From NCBI GenBank assembly GCA_035534615.1, contig DATLRO010000082.1, positions 436 through 64,435 of the forward strand: a DNA stretch of 64,000 bases, written 5' to 3'. The notes under the pieces were generated by a model. That model ran no database searches, was not told where the DNA came from, and saw only the letters and a list, made by a program, of their open reading frames with translations. The position numbers were made by a program, and so were the translations under genes. Numbering within the stretch: the stretch's first letter is position 1; every line of letters begins with the position of its first letter. Of this stretch, positions 57,619-60,644 are shown piece after piece. This DNA comes from Vicinamibacterales bacterium. GTDB lineage: Bacteria; Acidobacteriota; Vicinamibacteria; Vicinamibacterales; CAVVIG01.

Positions 57619-59067
57619 ATGATTTTTCTCTGGCTCCTGTCGCCGCCCCTGGCCGCCGCGCTCGCCGGGCTGGCCCTGCCGGTCCGGCCGGCCCGGCTCG
57701 TCAACGTCGTCCTGGCGCTGGTGCCGGCCGGCGCCGCGGTCGTCCTGTGGCAGCGGGCGCTCGCCGGCGTGCCGACCGTCTGGCCGGCCGGGGCGTTCCT
57801 GCGCGCCGACGCCCTGTCGACGATTCTGGCCCTCTGCATCGCCTTCGTCGGCGCCCTGGTCGCCTGGTTCGGGCCCGGCGCCGGCCGTGAAGACGGCTAC
57901 CAGCCCGCGCAGATCCGCCGGTTCACGGCGCTGTCGAACGTCTTCACCTTCACGATGCTGGGCGCGGTGGTCGTCAACAACGTGGGCGTGATGTGGGTCG
58001 CGATCGAGGCGACGACCATCGTGTCGGCGCTCCTGATCCCGCTGGTGATGTCGAAGGCGTCGGTCGAAGCCTCCTGGAAGTACATCGTCATCTGCTCGGT
58101 CGGCATCGCGCTGGCGTTCGTCGGCACGGTGCTCGCCTACTTCGACTTCGTGAATCTGGCGGGGCCGCTCGGCGGCGCGCTGAACTGGACGGTGCTGCTG
58201 GCCGCAGCCCCCAGACTCCACGCCGACGTCATCCGCCTCGCGTTCGTGTTCCTGCTGATCGGCTACGGCACGAAAGCCGGGCTGTCGCCGATGCACACGT
58301 GGCTGCCGGACGCGCACGCCGAGGCCCCGGCGCCGCTGTCGGCCATGATGTCGGGCACGCTGCTCGCCGTGGCCCTGTACGCCATTGCACGCTGGAAGAT
58401 GGTGGTCGACGCGGCGGGCCAGGAAGCATTCGCGAACGGACTGCTGCTGACGATCGGGCTGCTGACCGTGGCCATCGCGACCTTCAGCCTCGTCCTCCAG
58501 CGCAGCTTCAAGCGCATGCTGGCCTATTCCAGCATCGAGCACACGGGGCTCACCTGCCTCGGCCTCGCCCTCGGCCCGCTCGGGATCTTCGCCGCGCTGC
58601 TCCACCTCGTCAACCACAGCGTCGCCAAGTCGACGGCATTCGTGCTCGCCGGCCGGGTGCAGCACCGGTACCACACGACCGAGTTCACCCGGGTCACCGG
58701 CCTGCTGGCGACCATGCCGCAGACGGCGGCCGCCTTCGCCGCCGGCCTCGTGGCGCTGCTCGGCCTGCCGCCCTTCGGCCTGTTCGTGTCCGAACTGGCG
58801 CTGTTCCGCGCCGGGTTCGCGACCGGCCACCCGTGGGCGACGGGCGTCGTGCTGACGCTCGTGGTCATCGCGTTCGTCTCGATCCTCGGCCACCTCGCCG
58901 GCATGTTGTACGGCCCGCCATCCGAGGGCGTGAGCCACGGCGAGCCGGACCGGTGGATGCTCCTGCCGGTGCTGATCCCGGTCGCCATCCTGCTCGTGCT
59001 GGGTCTGAGTCTGCCGTCGTCCCTCAGCGGGCTGCTGGCGCGCGGCGTGGAGGTCTTCGGCCGATGA
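57619..59067 (+). CDS. HyfD/HyfF-like (NuoM/N-type) antiporter-like membrane subunit
   Basis: 482 aa. Motifs IGYGTKAGLSPMHTWLPDAHAEAPAPLSAMMSG and LAYSSIEHTG. Confidence 0.88.
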   Translation: MIFLWLLSPPLAAALAGLALPVRPARLVNVVLALVPAGAAVVLWQRALAGVPTVWPAGAFLRADALSTILALCIAFVGALVAWFGPGAGREDGYQPAQIRRFTALSNVFTFTMLGAVVVNNVGVMWVAIEATTIVSALLIPLVMSKASVEASWKYIVICSVGIALAFVGTVLAYFDFVNLAGPLGGALNWTVLLAAAPRLHADVIRLAFVFLLIGYGTKAGLSPMHTWLPDAHAEAPAPLSAMMSGTLLAVALYAIARWKMVVDAAGQEAFANGLLLTIGLLTVAIATFSLVLQRSFKRMLAYSSIEHTGLTCLGLALGPLGIFAALLHLVNHSVAKSTAFVLAGRVQHRYHTTEFTRVTGLLATMPQTAAAFAAGLVALLGLPPFGLFVSELALFRAGFATGHPWATGVVLTLVVIAFVSILGHLAGMLYGPPSEGVSHGEPDRWMLLPVLIPVAILLVLGLSLPSSLSGLLARGVEVFGR

Positions 59068-60644
59068 ACCGCAGCGTCCACCACCTCGTCCTCGAATGGC
59101 CGGCCGCGCCCGGGCTCGACGGGGCCGCGGCGCGGGTCGTGCGCGGCCGCGAACTGCACGTGTCGCTCGCCCCGGAACGGGTGCTGCCACTGGCCGCCTG
59201 GCTCCGGATCCGGTTCGACGCCGAGCTGATGGCGATGGTGGGCGAGGACCGGCGGGCCGACGAGGGACGATTCGACGTCCATTACCTGTTCGGCCGCCGG
59301 CAGGACGACTGGTTCGTCCATGCCACGGTCGCCGTCCCGCCGGCCCATCCGGTCATCGCCTCGCTCGCGTCGTTCCGGTACCCGGCATCGCGCTTCGAGC
59401 GCGAGATCCACGACCTGTTCGGGATCACCGCCTCCGGCCATCCGGATCCCCGGCCGCTGGTGCGTCACGCGTTCTGGCCGGACGATTACTTCCCCCTGCG
59501 GAAGGACGCGGGCGTCCGCGAGTTCACCGACGACGGCCGCGGGTTTCCGTTCGCTGAAGTGGGCGGCGAAGGCGTGTACGAAATTCCGGTCGGGCCGGTG
59601 CACGCCGGCATCATCGAACCCGGCCACTTCCGGTTCAGCGTCGTCGGCGAGACGATCATCACGATGAAGTCGCGCCTCTATTTCACCCACAAGGGGACCG
59701 AGAAGCTGTTCGAGGGGCGGGAGCCGGCAGCCGGCGTCGAACTGGCCGAGCGGATTTCCGGCGACACGAGCGTCGGCCATGCGCTCGCGTACTGCCAGGC
59801 GCTCGAGTCGGCGGCCGGCGCCGTCGTCCCGGACCGGGCCCGCTTCGTGCGCGTGATCCTGCTCGAGCTCGAGCGCCTCTACAATCACGTGGCCGACTTC
59901 GGCGCGATCGCCAACGACACCGGCTTCGCGCTCGGCCAGGCGCACTGCCTGGTGATCCGCGAACGCCTGTTCCGGCTGCACAAGCGTCTCACCGGCAGCC
60001 GCCTGCTGCGCGGGCTGCTCACGCCGGGCGGCCTGACGCGCGACCTCTCGATCGACCTCGGGCTGGCCGAGGAGGTCCAGGCGCAGATCCAGGCGTTCGA
60101 CGAGATTGCGGCGATCTGCCTGGCCAACACGCTGCTGACCGACCGGCTGGAGGGGACCGGGCGGCTGAGCGCGCGGATCGCCGAGGATCACGGCGCGCTC
60201 GGATTCGTCGCGCGCGCCTCGGGGCTTGACGTCGACGTCCGGCGGGACCACCCATTTGCCGCGTATCCGGATCTGCAGTGGCGTGTCCCGGTCGAGCACG
60301 CCGGCGACGTGATGGCGCGGGCGCTGGTCCGGCTGGCCGAGGCGCGGGAGTCCGGCTGGCTGATTCGTCAGGCGGTCGAACGGCTCCCGGCCGGACCGGT
60401 CGCGGCGCCGCTGCCGCCGATCCCGCCCTTCGCGCCGGCTTTCAGCCTGGTCGAGGGATGGCGTGGGGCGATCCTCCACTGGGTGTCGGTGGACCGCGCC
60501 GGACGGCTGTCTCGCGTCAAGGTGGTCGATCCGTCCTTTCTGAACTGGCGGCCGCTGTCGCTCGCCCTGCTGAACAACATCGTTCCCGACTTTCCGCTCT
60601 GCAACAAATCCTTCAACCAGTCCTATTCGGGCCACGACCTGTAA
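59064..60644 (+). CDS. HycE/HyfG-like large subunit (fused NuoC-NuoD fold) lacking all four Ni-Fe cysteine ligands
   Basis: The 3' part of ORF 57993..60644 from MNRSVHHLVLEW... (526 aa; ATGA overlap with the upstream stop). The N-terminus is NuoC-like (ASRFEREIHDLFGI). The catalytic-subunit core is GPVHAGIIEPGHFRF. The L1 position reads ERISGDTSVGH and the C-terminal L2 position reads NQSYSGHDL. Confidence 0.88.
   Translation: MNRSVHHLVLEWPAAPGLDGAAARVVRGRELHVSLAPERVLPLAAWLRIRFDAELMAMVGEDRRADEGRFDVHYLFGRRQDDWFVHATVAVPPAHPVIASLASFRYPASRFEREIHDLFGITASGHPDPRPLVRHAFWPDDYFPLRKDAGVREFTDDGRGFPFAEVGGEGVYEIPVGPVHAGIIEPGHFRFSVVGETIITMKSRLYFTHKGTEKLFEGREPAAGVELAERISGDTSVGHALAYCQALESAAGAVVPDRARFVRVILLELERLYNHVADFGAIANDTGFALGQAHCLVIRERLFRLHKRLTGSRLLRGLLTPGGLTRDLSIDLGLAEEVQAQIQAFDEIAAICLANTLLTDRLEGTGRLSARIAEDHGALGFVARASGLDVDVRRDHPFAAYPDLQWRVPVEHAGDVMARALVRLAEARESGWLIRQAVERLPAGPVAAPLPPIPPFAPAFSLVEGWRGAILHWVSVDRAGRLSRVKVVDPSFLNWRPLSLALLNNIVPDFPLCNKSFNQSYSGHDL

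What the first reader, a model, noticed from the sequence alone, without database searches (positions are those of the whole stretch)
59064..60644. Group-4 [NiFe]-hydrogenase large-subunit homologue with all four metal-binding cysteines replaced
The protein has the HycE/HyfG architecture: a NuoC-like N-terminus and the core GPVHAGIIEPGHFRF. At the two positions that bind the Ni-Fe centre in every bona fide [NiFe] hydrogenase, the cysteines are gone.
- The L1 motif (R-x-C-G-x-C-x-x-x-H) reads E-R-I-S-G-D-T-S-V-G-H (aa 229-239, about nt 59748-59780), so C->S and C->T.
- The C-terminal L2 motif (D-P-C-x-x-C-x-x-R/H) reads N-Q-S-Y-S-G-H-D-L at the very C-terminus (aa 518-526, about nt 60615-60641), so C->S and C->G.

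The flanking residues still align (..LAYCQALE.. after L1, ..PDFPL..KS.. before L2). That argues for true substitution rather than misalignment. The protein therefore cannot be a hydrogenase. It resembles the poorly understood Ehr (energy-converting hydrogenase-related) class, or an intermediate between hydrogenases and the NuoD subunit of complex I. The substrate and function of such complexes are unknown.
Basis: partly seen in the sequence, partly recalled or inferred. Interest (0 to 1): 0.8.

Follow-up and report, generated by a model that had tools for sequence, protein, structure and literature searches.

The report
Cysteine-less hydrogenase-like (Ehr) membrane complex subunit
This gene encodes the large subunit of an "Ehr" complex, a widespread and already named relative of membrane-bound hydrogenases and respiratory complex I that has lost its nickel-iron site; it is a typical member, and the family's function is still unknown.

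Summary
ORF 59064-60644 (+) encodes a 526-aa HycE/HyfG-like NuoC-NuoD fusion. All four Ni-Fe cysteine positions are substituted (S232, T235, S520, G523).

This is not an error or decay:
- The identical protein occurs in two independent assemblies.
- The replacement motifs (ER[IV]SGD[ST]..H and KSFN[LQ]SY[SA]G.DL) are conserved in all 120 close homologues, in about 90 distant representatives, and in most of 594 related genome loci.

The gene ends a tight six-gene operon: a NuoB-like subunit that keeps all four [4Fe-4S] cysteines, HyfB-, HyfC-, HyfE- and HyfF-like membrane subunits, then the large subunit. There is no HycF/NuoI ferredoxin subunit and no hyp, formate dehydrogenase or other partner gene nearby.

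This is the Ehr class (Marreiros 2013), excluded from hydrogenases by HydDB. It has the same layout as M. tuberculosis Rv0082-Rv0087 and the subunit composition of Azorhizobium HyqBCEFGI.

Its function is unknown in the literature up to 2025. I favour a ferredoxin-linked, ion-translocating complex with an unidentified acceptor.

Comparative extras found here: relatives form a series of progressive cofactor loss, and a few (some from CPR bacteria) have lost even the last Fe-S cluster.

Verdict: a new member of a known kind, of moderate to low interest.

The parts
53371..53913 (+). NuoB/HycG/MbhJ-like small subunit (180 aa from the TTG start; public gene callers start at 53392, giving 173 aa). 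It carries one hydrogenase-type [4Fe-4S] site: C59-x-x-C62, C126 and C156.
   Evidence: Pfam Oxidored_q6, 1.1e-31. MbhJ 6cfw_J 1.7e-38 and HycG 7z0s_G 1.2e-37, with all four cluster cysteines aligned without gaps. The four Cys are kept in 72 of 77 related loci. There is no N-terminal ferredoxin extension.
53915..55990 (+). HyfB/HycC-like antiporter-type membrane subunit (691 aa).
   Evidence: Pfam Proton_antipo_M. HycC 7z0s_C 6.7e-63. The NCBIfam hydrogenase-4 subunit B model scores 638 bits, just under its cut-off of 667. Motifs FAWEAMS, FGTKAG, NHAAFKG and FASEW, seen in the translation and alignment, hold the usual charged residues.
55987..56931 (+). HyfC/HycD/NuoH-like membrane anchor subunit (314 aa). 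Its start overlaps the upstream stop (ATGA).
   Evidence: Pfam NADHdh. HycD 7z0s_D 4.1e-49, against about 1e-7 for NuoH chains. Junction sequence.
56947..57594 (+). HyfE-like small membrane subunit (215 aa; gene callers give 201 aa).
   Evidence: NCBIfam hydrogenase-4 membrane subunit, 2.2e-27. Weak Pfam Oxidored_q2 match.
57619..59067 (+). HyfF/MbhH-like antiporter-type membrane subunit (482 aa).
   Evidence: Pfam Proton_antipo_M. MbhH 6cfw_H 1.3e-33, with the Glu in WVAIEAT, the Lys in GTKAG, the Lys in NHSVAKS and the Glu in FVSE conserved in the alignment. NCBIfam hydrogenase-4 subunit F, 1.5e-117.
59064..60644 (+). Ehr large subunit (526 aa): a NuoC-like domain fused to a NuoD/HycE-like domain. 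Its start overlaps the upstream stop (ATGA).
   Evidence: AlphaFold2 model with pLDDT 89 and pTM 0.92. Foldseek best match HycE 7z0s_E, TM 0.92, rmsd 2.6 A.
59163..59519 (+). NuoC-like (30 kDa) N-terminal domain, aa 34-152.
   Evidence: Pfam Complex1_30kDa, 1.9e-18.
59589..59636 (+). Beta1-beta2 loop VGPVHAGIIEPGHFRF (aa 176-191), including the hydrogenase-type proton-path Glu (E185) and H188.
   Evidence: Nearly invariant in Cys-less and in Cys-containing relatives alike. It is the only internal low-confidence segment of the model (aa 178-186).
59748..59780 (+). Former L1 Ni-Fe motif, now ERISGDTSVGH (aa 229-239): C->S232, C->T235, with a derived Asp234 between them.
   Evidence: Alignment to HycE. 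ER[IV]SGDT[TS][VI]GH in 119 of 120 close homologues. G233 and D234 are invariant in 30 diverse members.
60606..60641 (+). Former L2 Ni-Fe motif at the very C-terminus, now KSFNQSYSGHDL (aa 515-526): C->S520, C->G523. There is no C-terminal extension for a maturation protease.
   Evidence: Alignment to HycE. The tail is identical or nearly identical in 120 of 120 homologues. N514, K515, S516, S520, Y521, G523 and D525 are invariant in 30 diverse members.

Best explanation
Identity (near certain, about 0.95). The ORF is the large subunit of an Ehr (energy-converting-hydrogenase-related) complex. The complex is encoded by a translationally coupled six-gene operon at 53371-60644: a NuoB-like Fe-S subunit, HyfB-, HyfC-, HyfE- and HyfF-like membrane subunits, and a NuoCD-fused HycE-like large subunit. 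It descends from group-4 (4f/4a-like) [NiFe] hydrogenases. It has exchanged the four metal-binding cysteines for a different motif that is itself conserved (S-G-D-S/T ... N-x-S-Y-S/A-G). It is neither a canonical hydrogenase nor a quinone-reducing NuoD.

Mechanism (inferred, about 0.4). The complex still works as a redox-linked ion translocator of the complex I / MBH type.
- A soluble low-potential carrier, most plausibly a 2x[4Fe-4S] ferredoxin, docks where the missing HycF/NuoI subunit would sit.
- That carrier exchanges electrons with the single hydrogenase-type four-Cys [4Fe-4S] cluster of the small subunit.
- The resulting charge and protonation change occurs in the adjacent polar ex-Ni-Fe pocket. 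I infer E185, S232, D234, T235, S520 and Y521 to line it, because four of them occupy the former ligand positions.
- The invariant beta1-beta2 loop relays that change to the HyfC-like subunit and the two antiporter-like subunits, which move H+ or another cation. The process may be reversible.

The electron acceptor, or donor in reverse, is not identified. Membrane quinone is my leading candidate, but only weakly.

What is shown: the homology, the ligand loss and its conservation, the retained cluster ligands and membrane charged residues, and the operon composition. What is inferred: the electron donor, the direction, the acceptor and the ion.

The confidence value of 0.45 is for the whole statement, mechanism included.
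For: - Cys loss and homology.
- Selection on the replacement motif: 120 of 120 close homologues; about 90 distant representatives; 76 of the best 80 genome loci from many phyla.
- Apart from the ligand positions and residue 490, every residue strongly conserved in the true hydrogenase relatives is also conserved in the Cys-less group, including E185, H209, R263, D391, R393, D415, R419, E464, R467, D509 and D525.
- The small subunit keeps C-x-x-C, C and C aligned to MbhJ and HycG, and these are kept in 72 of 77 loci.
- Seven loci carry an intact 8-Cys ferredoxin domain fused to the small subunit. Five of them are Cys-less (L030, L035, L037, L038, L055) and two are true hydrogenases (L053, L072). 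In the five Cys-less loci a three-cluster wire is maintained by selection without Ni-Fe. This also points to ferredoxin-type input for the versions that lack the domain.
- The membrane subunits retain the canonical Glu and Lys residues and are closest to HycC/HycD/MbhH.
- The literature places such complexes in the Ehr class and next to group 4f (PMC10284858, PMC6349859, PMC6728331, PMC5037454).
Against: - No acceptor site can be named. The complex I quinone ligands are absent (Tyr87 -> G233, His38 -> I184).
- The HyfC-like subunit resembles HycD far more than NuoH.
- No redox partner gene recurs near 82 related loci. Only an ArsR-type regulator recurs, and it is absent from this window.
- Five related loci, including CPR Daviesbacteria and Saccharibacteria, have replaced three of the four cluster cysteines yet keep the S-G-D-S/T and N-L-S-Y-S-G motifs and the beta1-beta2 loop. 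The conserved core can therefore apparently function without any redox cofactor.
- An Acetobacterium MAG has a Cys-less version with an intact ferredoxin domain. From my own knowledge, acetobacteria lack quinones, which argues against quinone as a universal acceptor.
- No biochemical data exist for any member.
Confidence: 0.45

Rival explanations
1. A redox-independent ion translocator. The membrane arm works as an Mrp-like secondary cation/proton antiporter or pmf-driven transporter. The B + CD head is only a structural cap or a regulator, and the remaining [4Fe-4S] cluster acts at most as a redox or oxygen sensor that gates transport.
For: - Relatives form a series of progressive cofactor loss: Ni-Fe plus fused ferredoxin domain; no Ni-Fe with an intact ferredoxin domain; a degenerate ferredoxin domain; a single cluster (this window); no cluster at all (L040, L048, L049, L057, L065).
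- The cluster-free versions still keep the replacement motifs and the beta1-beta2 loop.
- No donor or acceptor module is encoded nearby.
- The family occurs in organisms of every redox lifestyle, including CPR bacteria (PMC7304191).
Against: - The four cluster cysteines are conserved in 72 of 77 loci, including this one.
- Some Cys-less members maintain a complete three-cluster wire. That is hard to explain without electron flow.
- Mrp antiporters need no such head.
- The cluster-free forms are a small derived minority.
Confidence: 0.3
2. A complex-I-like ferredoxin:quinone oxidoreductase, possibly running in reverse to make reduced ferredoxin. The quinone would bind in a re-built pocket that uses D234, Y521 and H188 instead of the Tyr87, His38 and Asp triad. 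This is a specific version of the best explanation.
For: - Precedents from my own knowledge: cyanobacterial NDH-1 and the Fpo complex without FpoF both take electrons from ferredoxin.
- The authors of the Hyq papers infer a link to membrane quinone, and the hyq operon is NifA-regulated alongside nitrogenase, which needs reduced ferredoxin (PMC2650096, PMC3357923).
- The M. tuberculosis operon is part of the hypoxia response (PMC6728331; He et al. 2011, as cited in PMC13284343).
- The derived Asp234 is invariant in 30 diverse members.
Against: - The canonical quinone ligands are absent.
- The small subunit has the hydrogenase C-x-x-C rather than the complex I tandem Cys-Cys (PMC7684303).
- The anchor subunit is HycD-like, not NuoH-like.
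- The family occurs in lineages thought to lack quinones, such as an Acetobacterium MAG (L030) and CPR bacteria.
- I could not examine the pocket geometry, because the tools return no coordinates.
Confidence: 0.15
3. A non-canonical hydrogenase. Like the Azorhizobium Hyq 'endo-hydrogenase', the complex oxidises or evolves H2 without a cysteine-bound Ni-Fe centre.
For: - In A. caulinodans, deleting the whole hyqRBCEFGI operon changed in-vivo H2 recycling and H2 evolution. HyqG lacks both C-x-x-C motifs (PMC2650096, PMC3357923).
- An alphaproteobacterial protein matches the published HyqG length and Cys-491/Cys-497 positions. It carries the same S-G-D-T and N-x-S-Y-S-G motifs and is 44% identical to the query.
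- The proton-path Glu is retained.
Against: - All known [NiFe] hydrogenases need the four cysteines, and HydDB excludes Ehr on this basis (PMC5037454).
- The Hyq evidence is genetic and in vivo only. The deletion also removed the regulator, and the authors call the catalytic site speculative.
- The Hyq effects could be indirect, through electron supply to nitrogenase (my inference).
- M. tuberculosis lacks the Ni-Fe maturation genes (PMC6728331).
- Ehr expression in Nitrospira moscoviensis did not respond to H2 (PMC12342949).
- No hyp or nickel genes lie in this 64-kb window.
- The query lacks two of the three cysteines conserved in HyqG.
Confidence: 0.07
4. An artefact or a decaying gene: a hydrogenase pseudogene, a frameshift or an assembly error removed the real motifs.
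For: None found.
Against: - The reading frame is intact, with coupled ATGA start/stop overlaps.
- The identical protein occurs in two assemblies.
- Homologues across phyla are at least 70% identical and share the same substitutions.
- The AlphaFold model is confident.
Confidence: 0.01

Closest known systems
Ehr complexes (energy-converting hydrogenase-related; Marreiros et al. 2013, BBA 1827:198), including M. tuberculosis Rv0082-Rv0087 ('hycD/P/Q/E', downstream of the ArsR-type regulator Rv0081)
   Same: - The large subunit is homologous to group-4 hydrogenases and NuoD but lacks the Ni-Fe cysteines and the quinone ligands.
- It is encoded with NuoB-, NuoH- and antiporter-like subunits and no NuoEFG.
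- The gene order B-L-H-K-N-D matches the mycobacterial, Streptomyces and Rokubacteria loci.
- Mycobacterial homologues are 48-51% identical and carry the same ER[IV]SGD[ST].. and KSFNLSYAGNDL motifs.
- PMC6728331 calls the M. tuberculosis genes EHR.
   Different: - No ArsR-type regulator lies upstream here, whereas 32 related loci have one.
- This window has one HyfB-like gene, whereas some Rokubacteria loci have two.
- The host is probably an acidobacterium of the order Vicinamibacterales (best named hit 78% identical).
Group 4f/4a [NiFe] hydrogenases (E. coli HycE/HyfG; putative Ehf)
   Same: - Same fold: TM 0.92 to HycE.
- Same NuoC-NuoD fusion, E-P-G-H proton-path motif and hydrogenase-type small subunit.
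- Hyf-like membrane subunits.
- The closest Cys-containing relative is 43% identical (P0127).
   Different: - All four Ni-Fe ligands are replaced.
- There is no HycF/HyfH ferredoxin subunit or fused ferredoxin domain. The four true hydrogenase loci in my set all have the fusion.
- No formate dehydrogenase, HyfA, hyp or protease genes lie nearby.
Azorhizobium caulinodans Hyq 'endo-hydrogenase' (hyqRBCEFGI; PMC2650096, PMC3357923)
   Same: - A six-subunit core made of the same six protein types.
- The large subunit lacks both C-x-x-C motifs.
- The small subunit has C-x-x-C plus two further Cys.
- A probable alphaproteobacterial orthologue shares the replacement motifs.
   Different: - The gene order differs: Hyq is L-H-K-N-D-B.
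- Of the three conserved HyqG cysteines, only the Cys-491 equivalent (C513) is present here. Q519 and A283 replace the others.
- Hyq is NifA/sigma-54 regulated.
- I did not align the A. caulinodans sequence itself.
MBS, the membrane-bound sulfane sulfur reductase of Pyrococcus furiosus (PMC7684303)
   Same: - A complex-I-like machine whose large subunit has no Ni-Fe site.
- The proximal [4Fe-4S] cluster is the last redox centre.
- It is a useful precedent for chemistry at the cluster itself.
   Different: - MbsL keeps two of the four cysteines.
- The MbsJ cluster motif is shortened, so only three Cys ligate the cluster.
- The MBS pocket is hydrophobic and lacks a proton path.
- MBS has a NuoI-like subunit and a full Mrp module.
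- Here the cluster motif aligns without gaps to MbhJ with four Cys, the pocket residues are polar, and E185 is retained.
Respiratory complex I NuoCD/NuoD (Nqo4)
   Same: - Homologous fold: TM about 0.88 to E. coli NuoCD.
- Same position in an L-shaped ion-translocating complex.
   Different: - Tyr87 and His38 are absent.
- NuoD NCBIfam models score far below their cut-offs: 205 against 360 bits.
- The small subunit lacks the tandem Cys-Cys.
- There are no NuoA, NuoJ, NuoI or NuoEFG genes.

Membership tests
Bona fide [NiFe]-hydrogenase large subunit (group 4) | L1 motif R-x-C-G-x-C-x-x-x-H with two metal-binding Cys | tested here: not met
   ERISGDTSVGH aligns to HycE DRVCGICGFAH, giving S232 and T235.
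Bona fide [NiFe]-hydrogenase large subunit (group 4) | L2 motif D-P-C-x-x-C-x-x-H/R with two metal-binding Cys | tested here: not met
   FNQSYSG aligns to HycE LDPCYSC, giving S520 and G523. The terminal residue is Leu where the Cys-containing relatives mostly have Arg.
Bona fide [NiFe]-hydrogenase large subunit (group 4) | Large-subunit fold and a paired small subunit with a proximal [4Fe-4S] cluster | tested here: met
   Foldseek TM 0.92 to HycE. The small subunit has four aligned Cys.
Bona fide [NiFe]-hydrogenase large subunit (group 4) | Hyp maturation machinery and H2 turnover | not testable with these tools
   No hyp or nickel genes lie in the 64-kb window, but the whole genome is not available. 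Activity needs experiment.
Ehr (energy-converting hydrogenase-related) complex | Homologue of the group-4 large subunit / NuoD that lacks the Ni-Fe cysteine ligands | tested here: met
Ehr (energy-converting hydrogenase-related) complex | Also lacks the complex I quinone-binding residues | tested here: met
   Nqo4 Tyr87 aligns to G233 and His38 to I184, in an ungapped stretch of the alignment.
Ehr (energy-converting hydrogenase-related) complex | Encoded with NuoB-like, NuoH-like and Mrp/antiporter-like subunits, and without the NADH module | tested here: met
   Operon 53371-60644. The same composition is seen in 82 related loci.
Complex I NuoD / NuoCD | Quinone ligands Tyr87 and His38 (T. thermophilus numbering) | tested here: not met
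Complex I NuoD / NuoCD | Score above the curated NuoD family cut-offs; a nuo operon with NuoA, NuoI and NuoJ | tested here: not met
   NF004739 scores 205 bits against a cut-off of 360, and TIGR01962 170 against 459. No such genes are in the cluster.
MBS (MbsL/MbsJ type) | Two retained Cys in the large subunit and a shortened small-subunit motif giving a three-Cys proximal cluster | tested here: not met
   No Cys at any ligand position. GSCNGCEIE aligns without a gap to MbhJ GSCNGCDIE. The defining features are taken from PMC7684303.
Hyq endo-hydrogenase (Azorhizobium type) | Six subunits HyqBCEFGI, with a Cys-less HyqG and a four-Cys HyqI | tested here: met
   The same six protein types are present, although the gene order differs. 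The features are taken from PMC3357923.
Hyq endo-hydrogenase (Azorhizobium type) | Three family-conserved cysteines (Cys-258, Cys-491, Cys-497) | tested here: not met
   Only C513 (equivalent to Cys-491) is present. Q519 and A283 occupy the other two positions, as mapped through the probable orthologue P0191.
Mycobacterial Rv0081-Rv0087-type locus | ArsR-type regulator directly upstream of B-L-H-K-N-D | tested here: inconclusive
   The gene order is met. The regulator is absent from the whole window but present in 32 related loci.

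The most novel reading that the evidence does not exclude
The conserved replacement pocket (S-G-D-S/T plus N-x-S-Y-S/A-G, next to a single [4Fe-4S] cluster and the retained proton-path Glu) could be a new catalytic site that handles H2 or protons without a cysteine-bound Ni-Fe centre, as the in-vivo Azorhizobium Hyq deletion phenotypes were taken to suggest. 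This window's protein would then be a member of a very widespread, unrecognised class of hydrogenase.

A less radical novel reading, which I put at about 0.25-0.3, is that the family is a complex-I-like machine able to run with no redox chemistry at all. The cluster-free variants, some from CPR bacteria, point that way.
Probability: 0.05. Interest if true: 0.9.

Novelty: new member of a known kind. Interest (0 to 1): 0.3.

Why it matters
Ehr complexes are among the most widespread uncharacterised relatives of respiratory complex I.
- They were found here in most of 594 related loci in species-representative genomes. These span soil Acidobacteria, Rokubacteria, Nitrospira, Streptomyces, CPR bacteria and some archaea.
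- They include the hypoxia-induced Rv0082-Rv0087 operon of M. tuberculosis (PMC6728331).

Knowing what they do would fill a gap in microbial bioenergetics and in models of how complex I evolved from hydrogenases.

This window does not make that question more tractable, because it is an ordinary member from an uncultured organism.

It has practical value as an annotation warning. Public sources label these proteins 'Ni,Fe-hydrogenase III large subunit', 'NADH-quinone oxidoreductase subunit C' or even 'HypE'. No NCBIfam model reaches its cut-off for the large subunit. Metabolic reconstructions can therefore wrongly infer H2 metabolism or a second complex I.

The comparative patterns seen here suggest concrete mutants and constructs for whoever takes up the biochemistry. 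These are the invariant Asp234 and Tyr521, the stepwise loss of the ferredoxin domain, and the final loss of the last cluster.

Tried and rejected
- **Misalignment or alternative cysteines.** Rejected. The HycE alignment has no gaps around either motif. The only nearby Cys (C513) is seven residues from the first L2 position and varies between C, I and V in relatives (pattern).
- **Sequencing error or pseudogene.** Rejected.
- **Curated family assignment.** No NCBIfam model reaches its cut-off for the large subunit.
- **Search for a redox partner.** I clustered 3187 flanking ORFs from 82 loci. Only an ArsR-type regulator recurred, together with response regulators and ABC ATPases that are probably chance family matches. 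No formate dehydrogenase, CODH or hyp genes recurred.
- **Separate HycF/NuoI-type gene.** A regex scan for 2x[4Fe-4S] proteins within 3 kb found none as a separate operon gene. The in-operon hits were N-terminal extensions of the small subunit.
- **Single or repeated Cys loss.** A neighbour-joining tree of 116 representatives, with the motif columns excluded, put most Cys-containing sequences in one clade. It was star-like and had no bootstrap support, so I draw no conclusion.
- **Context of the closest Cys-containing relative (P0127).** Its contig is only 2.2 kb, which is uninformative.
- **Promoter and terminator scan of 52900-61600.** Nothing above the shuffled expectation.
- **ArsR homologue in the window.** None found.
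- **Pocket geometry.** I could not inspect the AlphaFold model, because the tools return no coordinates.
- **Literature not held in the library.** Cook et al. 2014 (PMC4205543) is not held. I did not try to fetch Marreiros et al. 2013 and cite it only through other papers.

Full report
**Observation**

The ORF 59064-60644 (+) is intact and encodes 526 aa. Public gene callers predict the identical protein (P0001, 100% identity and coverage). It occurs on two independent contigs from two samples.

Pfam finds a NuoC-like Complex1_30kDa domain (aa 34-152), the N-terminal part of NiFeSe_Hases (aa 211-279) and Complex1_49kDa (aa 293-448).

The best solved relative is E. coli HycE (7z0s_E, E = 1.4e-68, 235 bits). 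It is followed by T. thermophilus Nqo4 (147 bits), E. coli NuoCD, P. furiosus MbhL (123 bits) and MbsL (114 bits).

In the HMMER alignment:
- HycE DRVCGICGFAH pairs with ERISGDTSVGH.
- HycE LDPCYSC pairs with FNQSYSG.
- Neither motif has a gap near it.
- The four Ni-Fe ligands are therefore S232, T235, S520 and G523.

In the same call, Nqo4 Tyr87 aligns with G233 and His38 with I184. The complex I quinone ligands are therefore absent as well.

**Not chance, error or decay**

All 120 best homologues are at least 69% identical. Where sources name an organism, they give Rokubacteria/Methylomirabilota, NC10 or Vicinamibacterales. These homologues carry ER[IV]SGDT[TS][VI]GH (119 of 120) and end in CNKSFNQSYSG[NH]DL (120 of 120).

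An exhaustive HMMER search of 1.84 billion cluster representatives gave 8468 hits. Among the best 150 (33-81% identity):
- 24 have both L1 cysteines. Of these, 20 have all four (ERxCGxC..H and KSFELCYxC.DR) and are presumably true group-4 hydrogenases.
- A few keep only the first cysteine.
- About 110 are cysteine-free at the ligand positions, with a conserved S/A-G-D-S/T/E/N ... K-S-F-N-L-S-Y-S/A-G-x-D-L.

In an alignment of 30 diverse cysteine-less members, G233, D234, N514, K515, S516, S520, Y521, G523 and D525 are invariant.

I compared 90 cysteine-less with 20 four-cysteine representatives. The only positions conserved differently in the two groups are the ligand positions and residue 490. 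All other strongly conserved residues are shared, including the proton-path Glu185 in E-P-G-H. The metal site has been swapped for another conserved motif on an otherwise unchanged scaffold.

An AlphaFold2 model built from that alignment is confident (pLDDT 89, pTM 0.92). It is weak only in the beta1-beta2 loop (aa 178-186) and the last few residues. Its best structural match is HycE (TM 0.92, rmsd 2.6 A), ahead of E. coli NuoCD (TM about 0.88).

**Context in the window**

The gene is the last of six co-oriented genes. Their junctions are tight, and two are ATGA start/stop overlaps.

| Coordinates | Product | Main evidence |
|---|---|---|
| 53371-53913 | NuoB/HycG/MbhJ-like small subunit | |
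| 53915-55990 | HyfB/HycC-like | |
| 55987-56931 | HyfC/HycD-like | |
| 56947-57594 | HyfE-like | |
| 57619-59067 | HyfF/MbhH-like | |
| 59064-60644 | large subunit | |

- The small subunit keeps all four [4Fe-4S] ligands (C59-x-x-C62, C126, C156), aligned without gaps to MbhJ and HycG. This is the hydrogenase arrangement. It is neither the tandem Cys-Cys of complex I nor the shortened three-Cys motif of MBS (PMC7684303).
- The antiporter-like and HycD-like subunits retain the usual membrane-embedded Glu and Lys residues.
- There is no HycF/NuoI-type ferredoxin subunit and no NuoEFG.
- Within the 64-kb window there are no hyp, nickel-transport, formate dehydrogenase or CODH genes.
- The flanks are an ACT-DUF5612 gene on the opposite strand upstream and a CBS-pair gene downstream. 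Neither is conserved in related loci.
- The window has 70% G+C. Its gene content (TonB receptors with CarboxypepD_reg domains, Sortilin/BNR proteins) and its best named hit (Vicinamibacterales, 78% identity) suggest an acidobacterium.

**Related loci**

Of the best 80, 76 are cysteine-less.

They come from Rokubacteria, Chloroflexi, Nitrospira, Acidobacteria, Verrucomicrobia, Omnitrophota, Firmicutes, Actinobacteria (Mycobacterium, Mycolicibacter, Streptomyces, Nonomuraea), Saganbacteria, CPR phyla, Methanosarcinales and Methanomassiliicoccales.

Two gene orders exist:
- B-L(-L)-H-K-N-D, as in this window, Rokubacteria, Chloroflexi, Actinobacteria and CPR bacteria.
- L-H-K-N-D-B, as in the E. 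coli hyf operon, seen in Nitrospira, Acidobacteria, Firmicutes and archaea.

The only widely recurrent neighbour is an ArsR/HTH_5 regulator directly upstream, in 32 loci. It is absent from this window.

The B-first order with an ArsR gene upstream is the layout of M. tuberculosis Rv0081-Rv0087. PMC6728331 explicitly calls those genes EHR complexes of undetermined function and notes that M. tuberculosis lacks Ni-Fe maturation genes. The mycobacterial homologues fetched here are 48-51% identical to the query and carry the same motifs.

**A series of cofactor loss**

| State | Loci |
|---|---|
| Ni-Fe cysteines present, L-H-K-N-D-B order, small subunit with an N-terminal 8-9-Cys ferredoxin-like extension | L053 (Thermincola), L072, L076, L083 (Desulfotomaculum) |
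| Cysteine-less, intact 2x[4Fe-4S] extension | L030, L035, L037, L038, L055 |
| Cysteine-less, extension degenerate (4-7 Cys) | Acidobacteria and Verrucomicrobia loci |
| Cysteine-less, no extension, single cluster | this window, all other B-first loci, Nitrospira |
| Cysteine-less, three of the four ligands of the last cluster also replaced (C59->T/D/S, C126->D/G, C156->D) | L040, L048 (Daviesbacteria), L049 (Saccharibacteria), L057, L065 |

The loci in the last row still keep the S-G-D-S/T and N-L-S-Y-S-G motifs and the VGPVHAGIIEPGHFRF loop.

I could not check whether this series has been published. Marreiros et al. 2013 is a subscription-journal paper that I did not try to retrieve.

**What it most likely does**

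Identity is secure: it is an Ehr large subunit. The mechanism is inferred.

I favour (about 0.4) a redox-linked ion translocator. A soluble ferredoxin-type carrier would exchange electrons with the single cluster at the surface left open by the missing HycF/NuoI subunit. The redox and protonation change next to the polar ex-Ni-Fe pocket would then be relayed by the beta1-beta2 loop to the HycD-like and antiporter-like subunits.

Arguments for:
- The cluster ligands are conserved in 72 of 77 loci.
- Some cysteine-less members maintain a complete three-cluster wire.
- The shared conserved scaffold includes the proton-path Glu.
- The membrane-arm residues are intact.

Arguments against:
- No acceptor can be named.
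- No partner gene recurs.
- Cluster-free variants exist.

Rivals:
- **Redox-independent transporter (about 0.3).** An Mrp-like transporter with the head acting as a cap or sensor.
- **Ferredoxin:quinone oxidoreductase (about 0.15).** A rebuilt quinone site. Against it: Tyr87 and His38 are absent, the anchor subunit is HycD-like, and the family occurs in lineages thought to lack quinones.
- **Non-canonical hydrogenase (about 0.07).**

The last rival deserves mention. The A. caulinodans hyqRBCEFGI operon encodes a six-subunit complex whose HyqG lacks both C-x-x-C motifs. Deleting it changed in-vivo H2 recycling and evolution (PMC2650096, PMC3357923).

An alphaproteobacterial 504-aa representative (P0191, Falsiroseomonas) has Cys-491 and Cys-497 exactly as published for HyqG. 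It carries ARLSGDTTVAH ... KSFNCSYSGVDL and is 44% identical to the query. Hyq therefore very probably belongs to the same family.

That evidence is genetic only, and the deletions also removed the regulator. The authors call the catalytic site speculative. Effects through electron supply to nitrogenase are a plausible alternative, which is my own inference. In Nitrospira moscoviensis, Ehr expression did not respond to H2 (PMC12342949).

**Comparison with the known, and novelty**

The class has been recognised since 2013:
- HydDB is trained to exclude it from hydrogenases (PMC5037454).
- It is reported in Margulisbacteria, Saganbacteria and Melainabacteria (PMC6349859), in CPR bacteria (PMC7304191), in comammox Nitrospira (PMC10284858) and in about half of Nitrospirales genomes (PMC12342949).
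- In each case the function is stated to be unknown.

The window's protein meets every defining feature of Ehr that I could test. It fails the defining features of true [NiFe] hydrogenases, NuoD and MbsL (see the membership table). It is therefore a new member of a known kind.

A specialist would not be surprised by it. Its value is mainly as a correctly flagged annotation trap, and as one more data point in a family whose biochemistry remains an open problem.

Noticed in passing
L040, L048, L049, L057, L065 (small-subunit genes; e.g. L048:4311-4826, L049:4361-4804): In five related loci, including CPR Daviesbacteria and Saccharibacteria, the NuoB-like subunit has replaced three of its four [4Fe-4S] cysteines (GSTNACEQE, GDDAIDGG, PGDPPS). 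The large subunit keeps the S-G-D-S and N-L-S-Y-S-G motifs. These complex-I-like machines would have no redox cofactor at all.
   Followed up: partly
L030:11530-12315, L035:11576-12430, L037:2004-2852, L038:10975-12036, L053:11515-12246, L055:7356-8402, L072 (small subunit ending near 6678): In many L-H-K-N-D-B loci the small subunit carries an N-terminal ferredoxin-like extension with two CxxCxxCxxxC motifs, that is, a HycF/NuoI-like domain fused to NuoB. Acidobacteria and Verrucomicrobia versions have only 4-7 Cys left, which suggests stepwise degeneration.
   Followed up: partly
L001:2023-2379, L002:1905-2258, L027:4007-4378, L056:3975-4319 and 28 other loci: A cysteine-free ArsR/SmtB-type (HTH_5) regulator sits directly upstream of the operon in 32 related loci. 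Several actinobacterial loci have a second copy just downstream of the large subunit (e.g. L043:11512-11871). This matches Rv0081 of M. tuberculosis. It is absent from this window.
   Followed up: partly
L069:4805-12022 and 12268-19754; L074: A Nitrospirota MAG carries two complete Ehr operons in tandem (L-H-K-N-D-B repeated). A Fibrobacteria MAG has a second partial set.
   Followed up: no
window 60946-61404 (+): A CBS-pair protein (152 aa) lies 300 bp downstream of the large subunit on the same strand. It is not conserved next to the operon in the related loci examined.
   Followed up: partly
window 52227-53282 (-): An ACT + DUF5612 protein is divergently oriented immediately upstream of the operon. 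Gene callers give a shorter 217-aa product.
   Followed up: no
window 20787-23648 (-) and 31588-34959 (-): Two large molybdopterin-binding subunits of the xanthine dehydrogenase / aldehyde oxidase family (MoCoBD_1 and MoCoBD_2) lie about 10 kb apart. The first is next to a proline dehydrogenase gene (19781-20794).
   Followed up: no
window 10268-12160 (-): A GltD-like flavoprotein (630-residue frame) with Pyr_redox_2, Fer4_20 and a C-terminal 4Fe-4S dicluster domain. It is a possible low-potential electron-handling enzyme, but it lies 41 kb from the Ehr operon.
   Followed up: no
window 12490-15534 (-): A CysN/CysC-type fusion (GTP_EFTU plus APS kinase) for sulfate activation. The open frame extends far upstream of the domains.
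   Followed up: no
window 45972-46457 (+) and 46509-48161 (+): A DCC1-like thiol-disulfide oxidoreductase is immediately followed by a homologue of eukaryotic lipase maturation factor (LMF1 and LMF1_C domains).
   Followed up: no
window 16443-19703 (-) and 61512-63998 (-): Two very large Sortilin/BNR-repeat proteins. A third lies just beyond the window on the same contig (L004:15770-18913).
   Followed up: no
clusters of P0191 and P0002: Public names for members of this family are inconsistent and misleading. They include 'Ni,Fe-hydrogenase III large subunit', 'NADH-quinone oxidoreductase subunit C', 'hydrogenase large subunit' and 'hydrogenase expression protein HypE'.
   Followed up: yes
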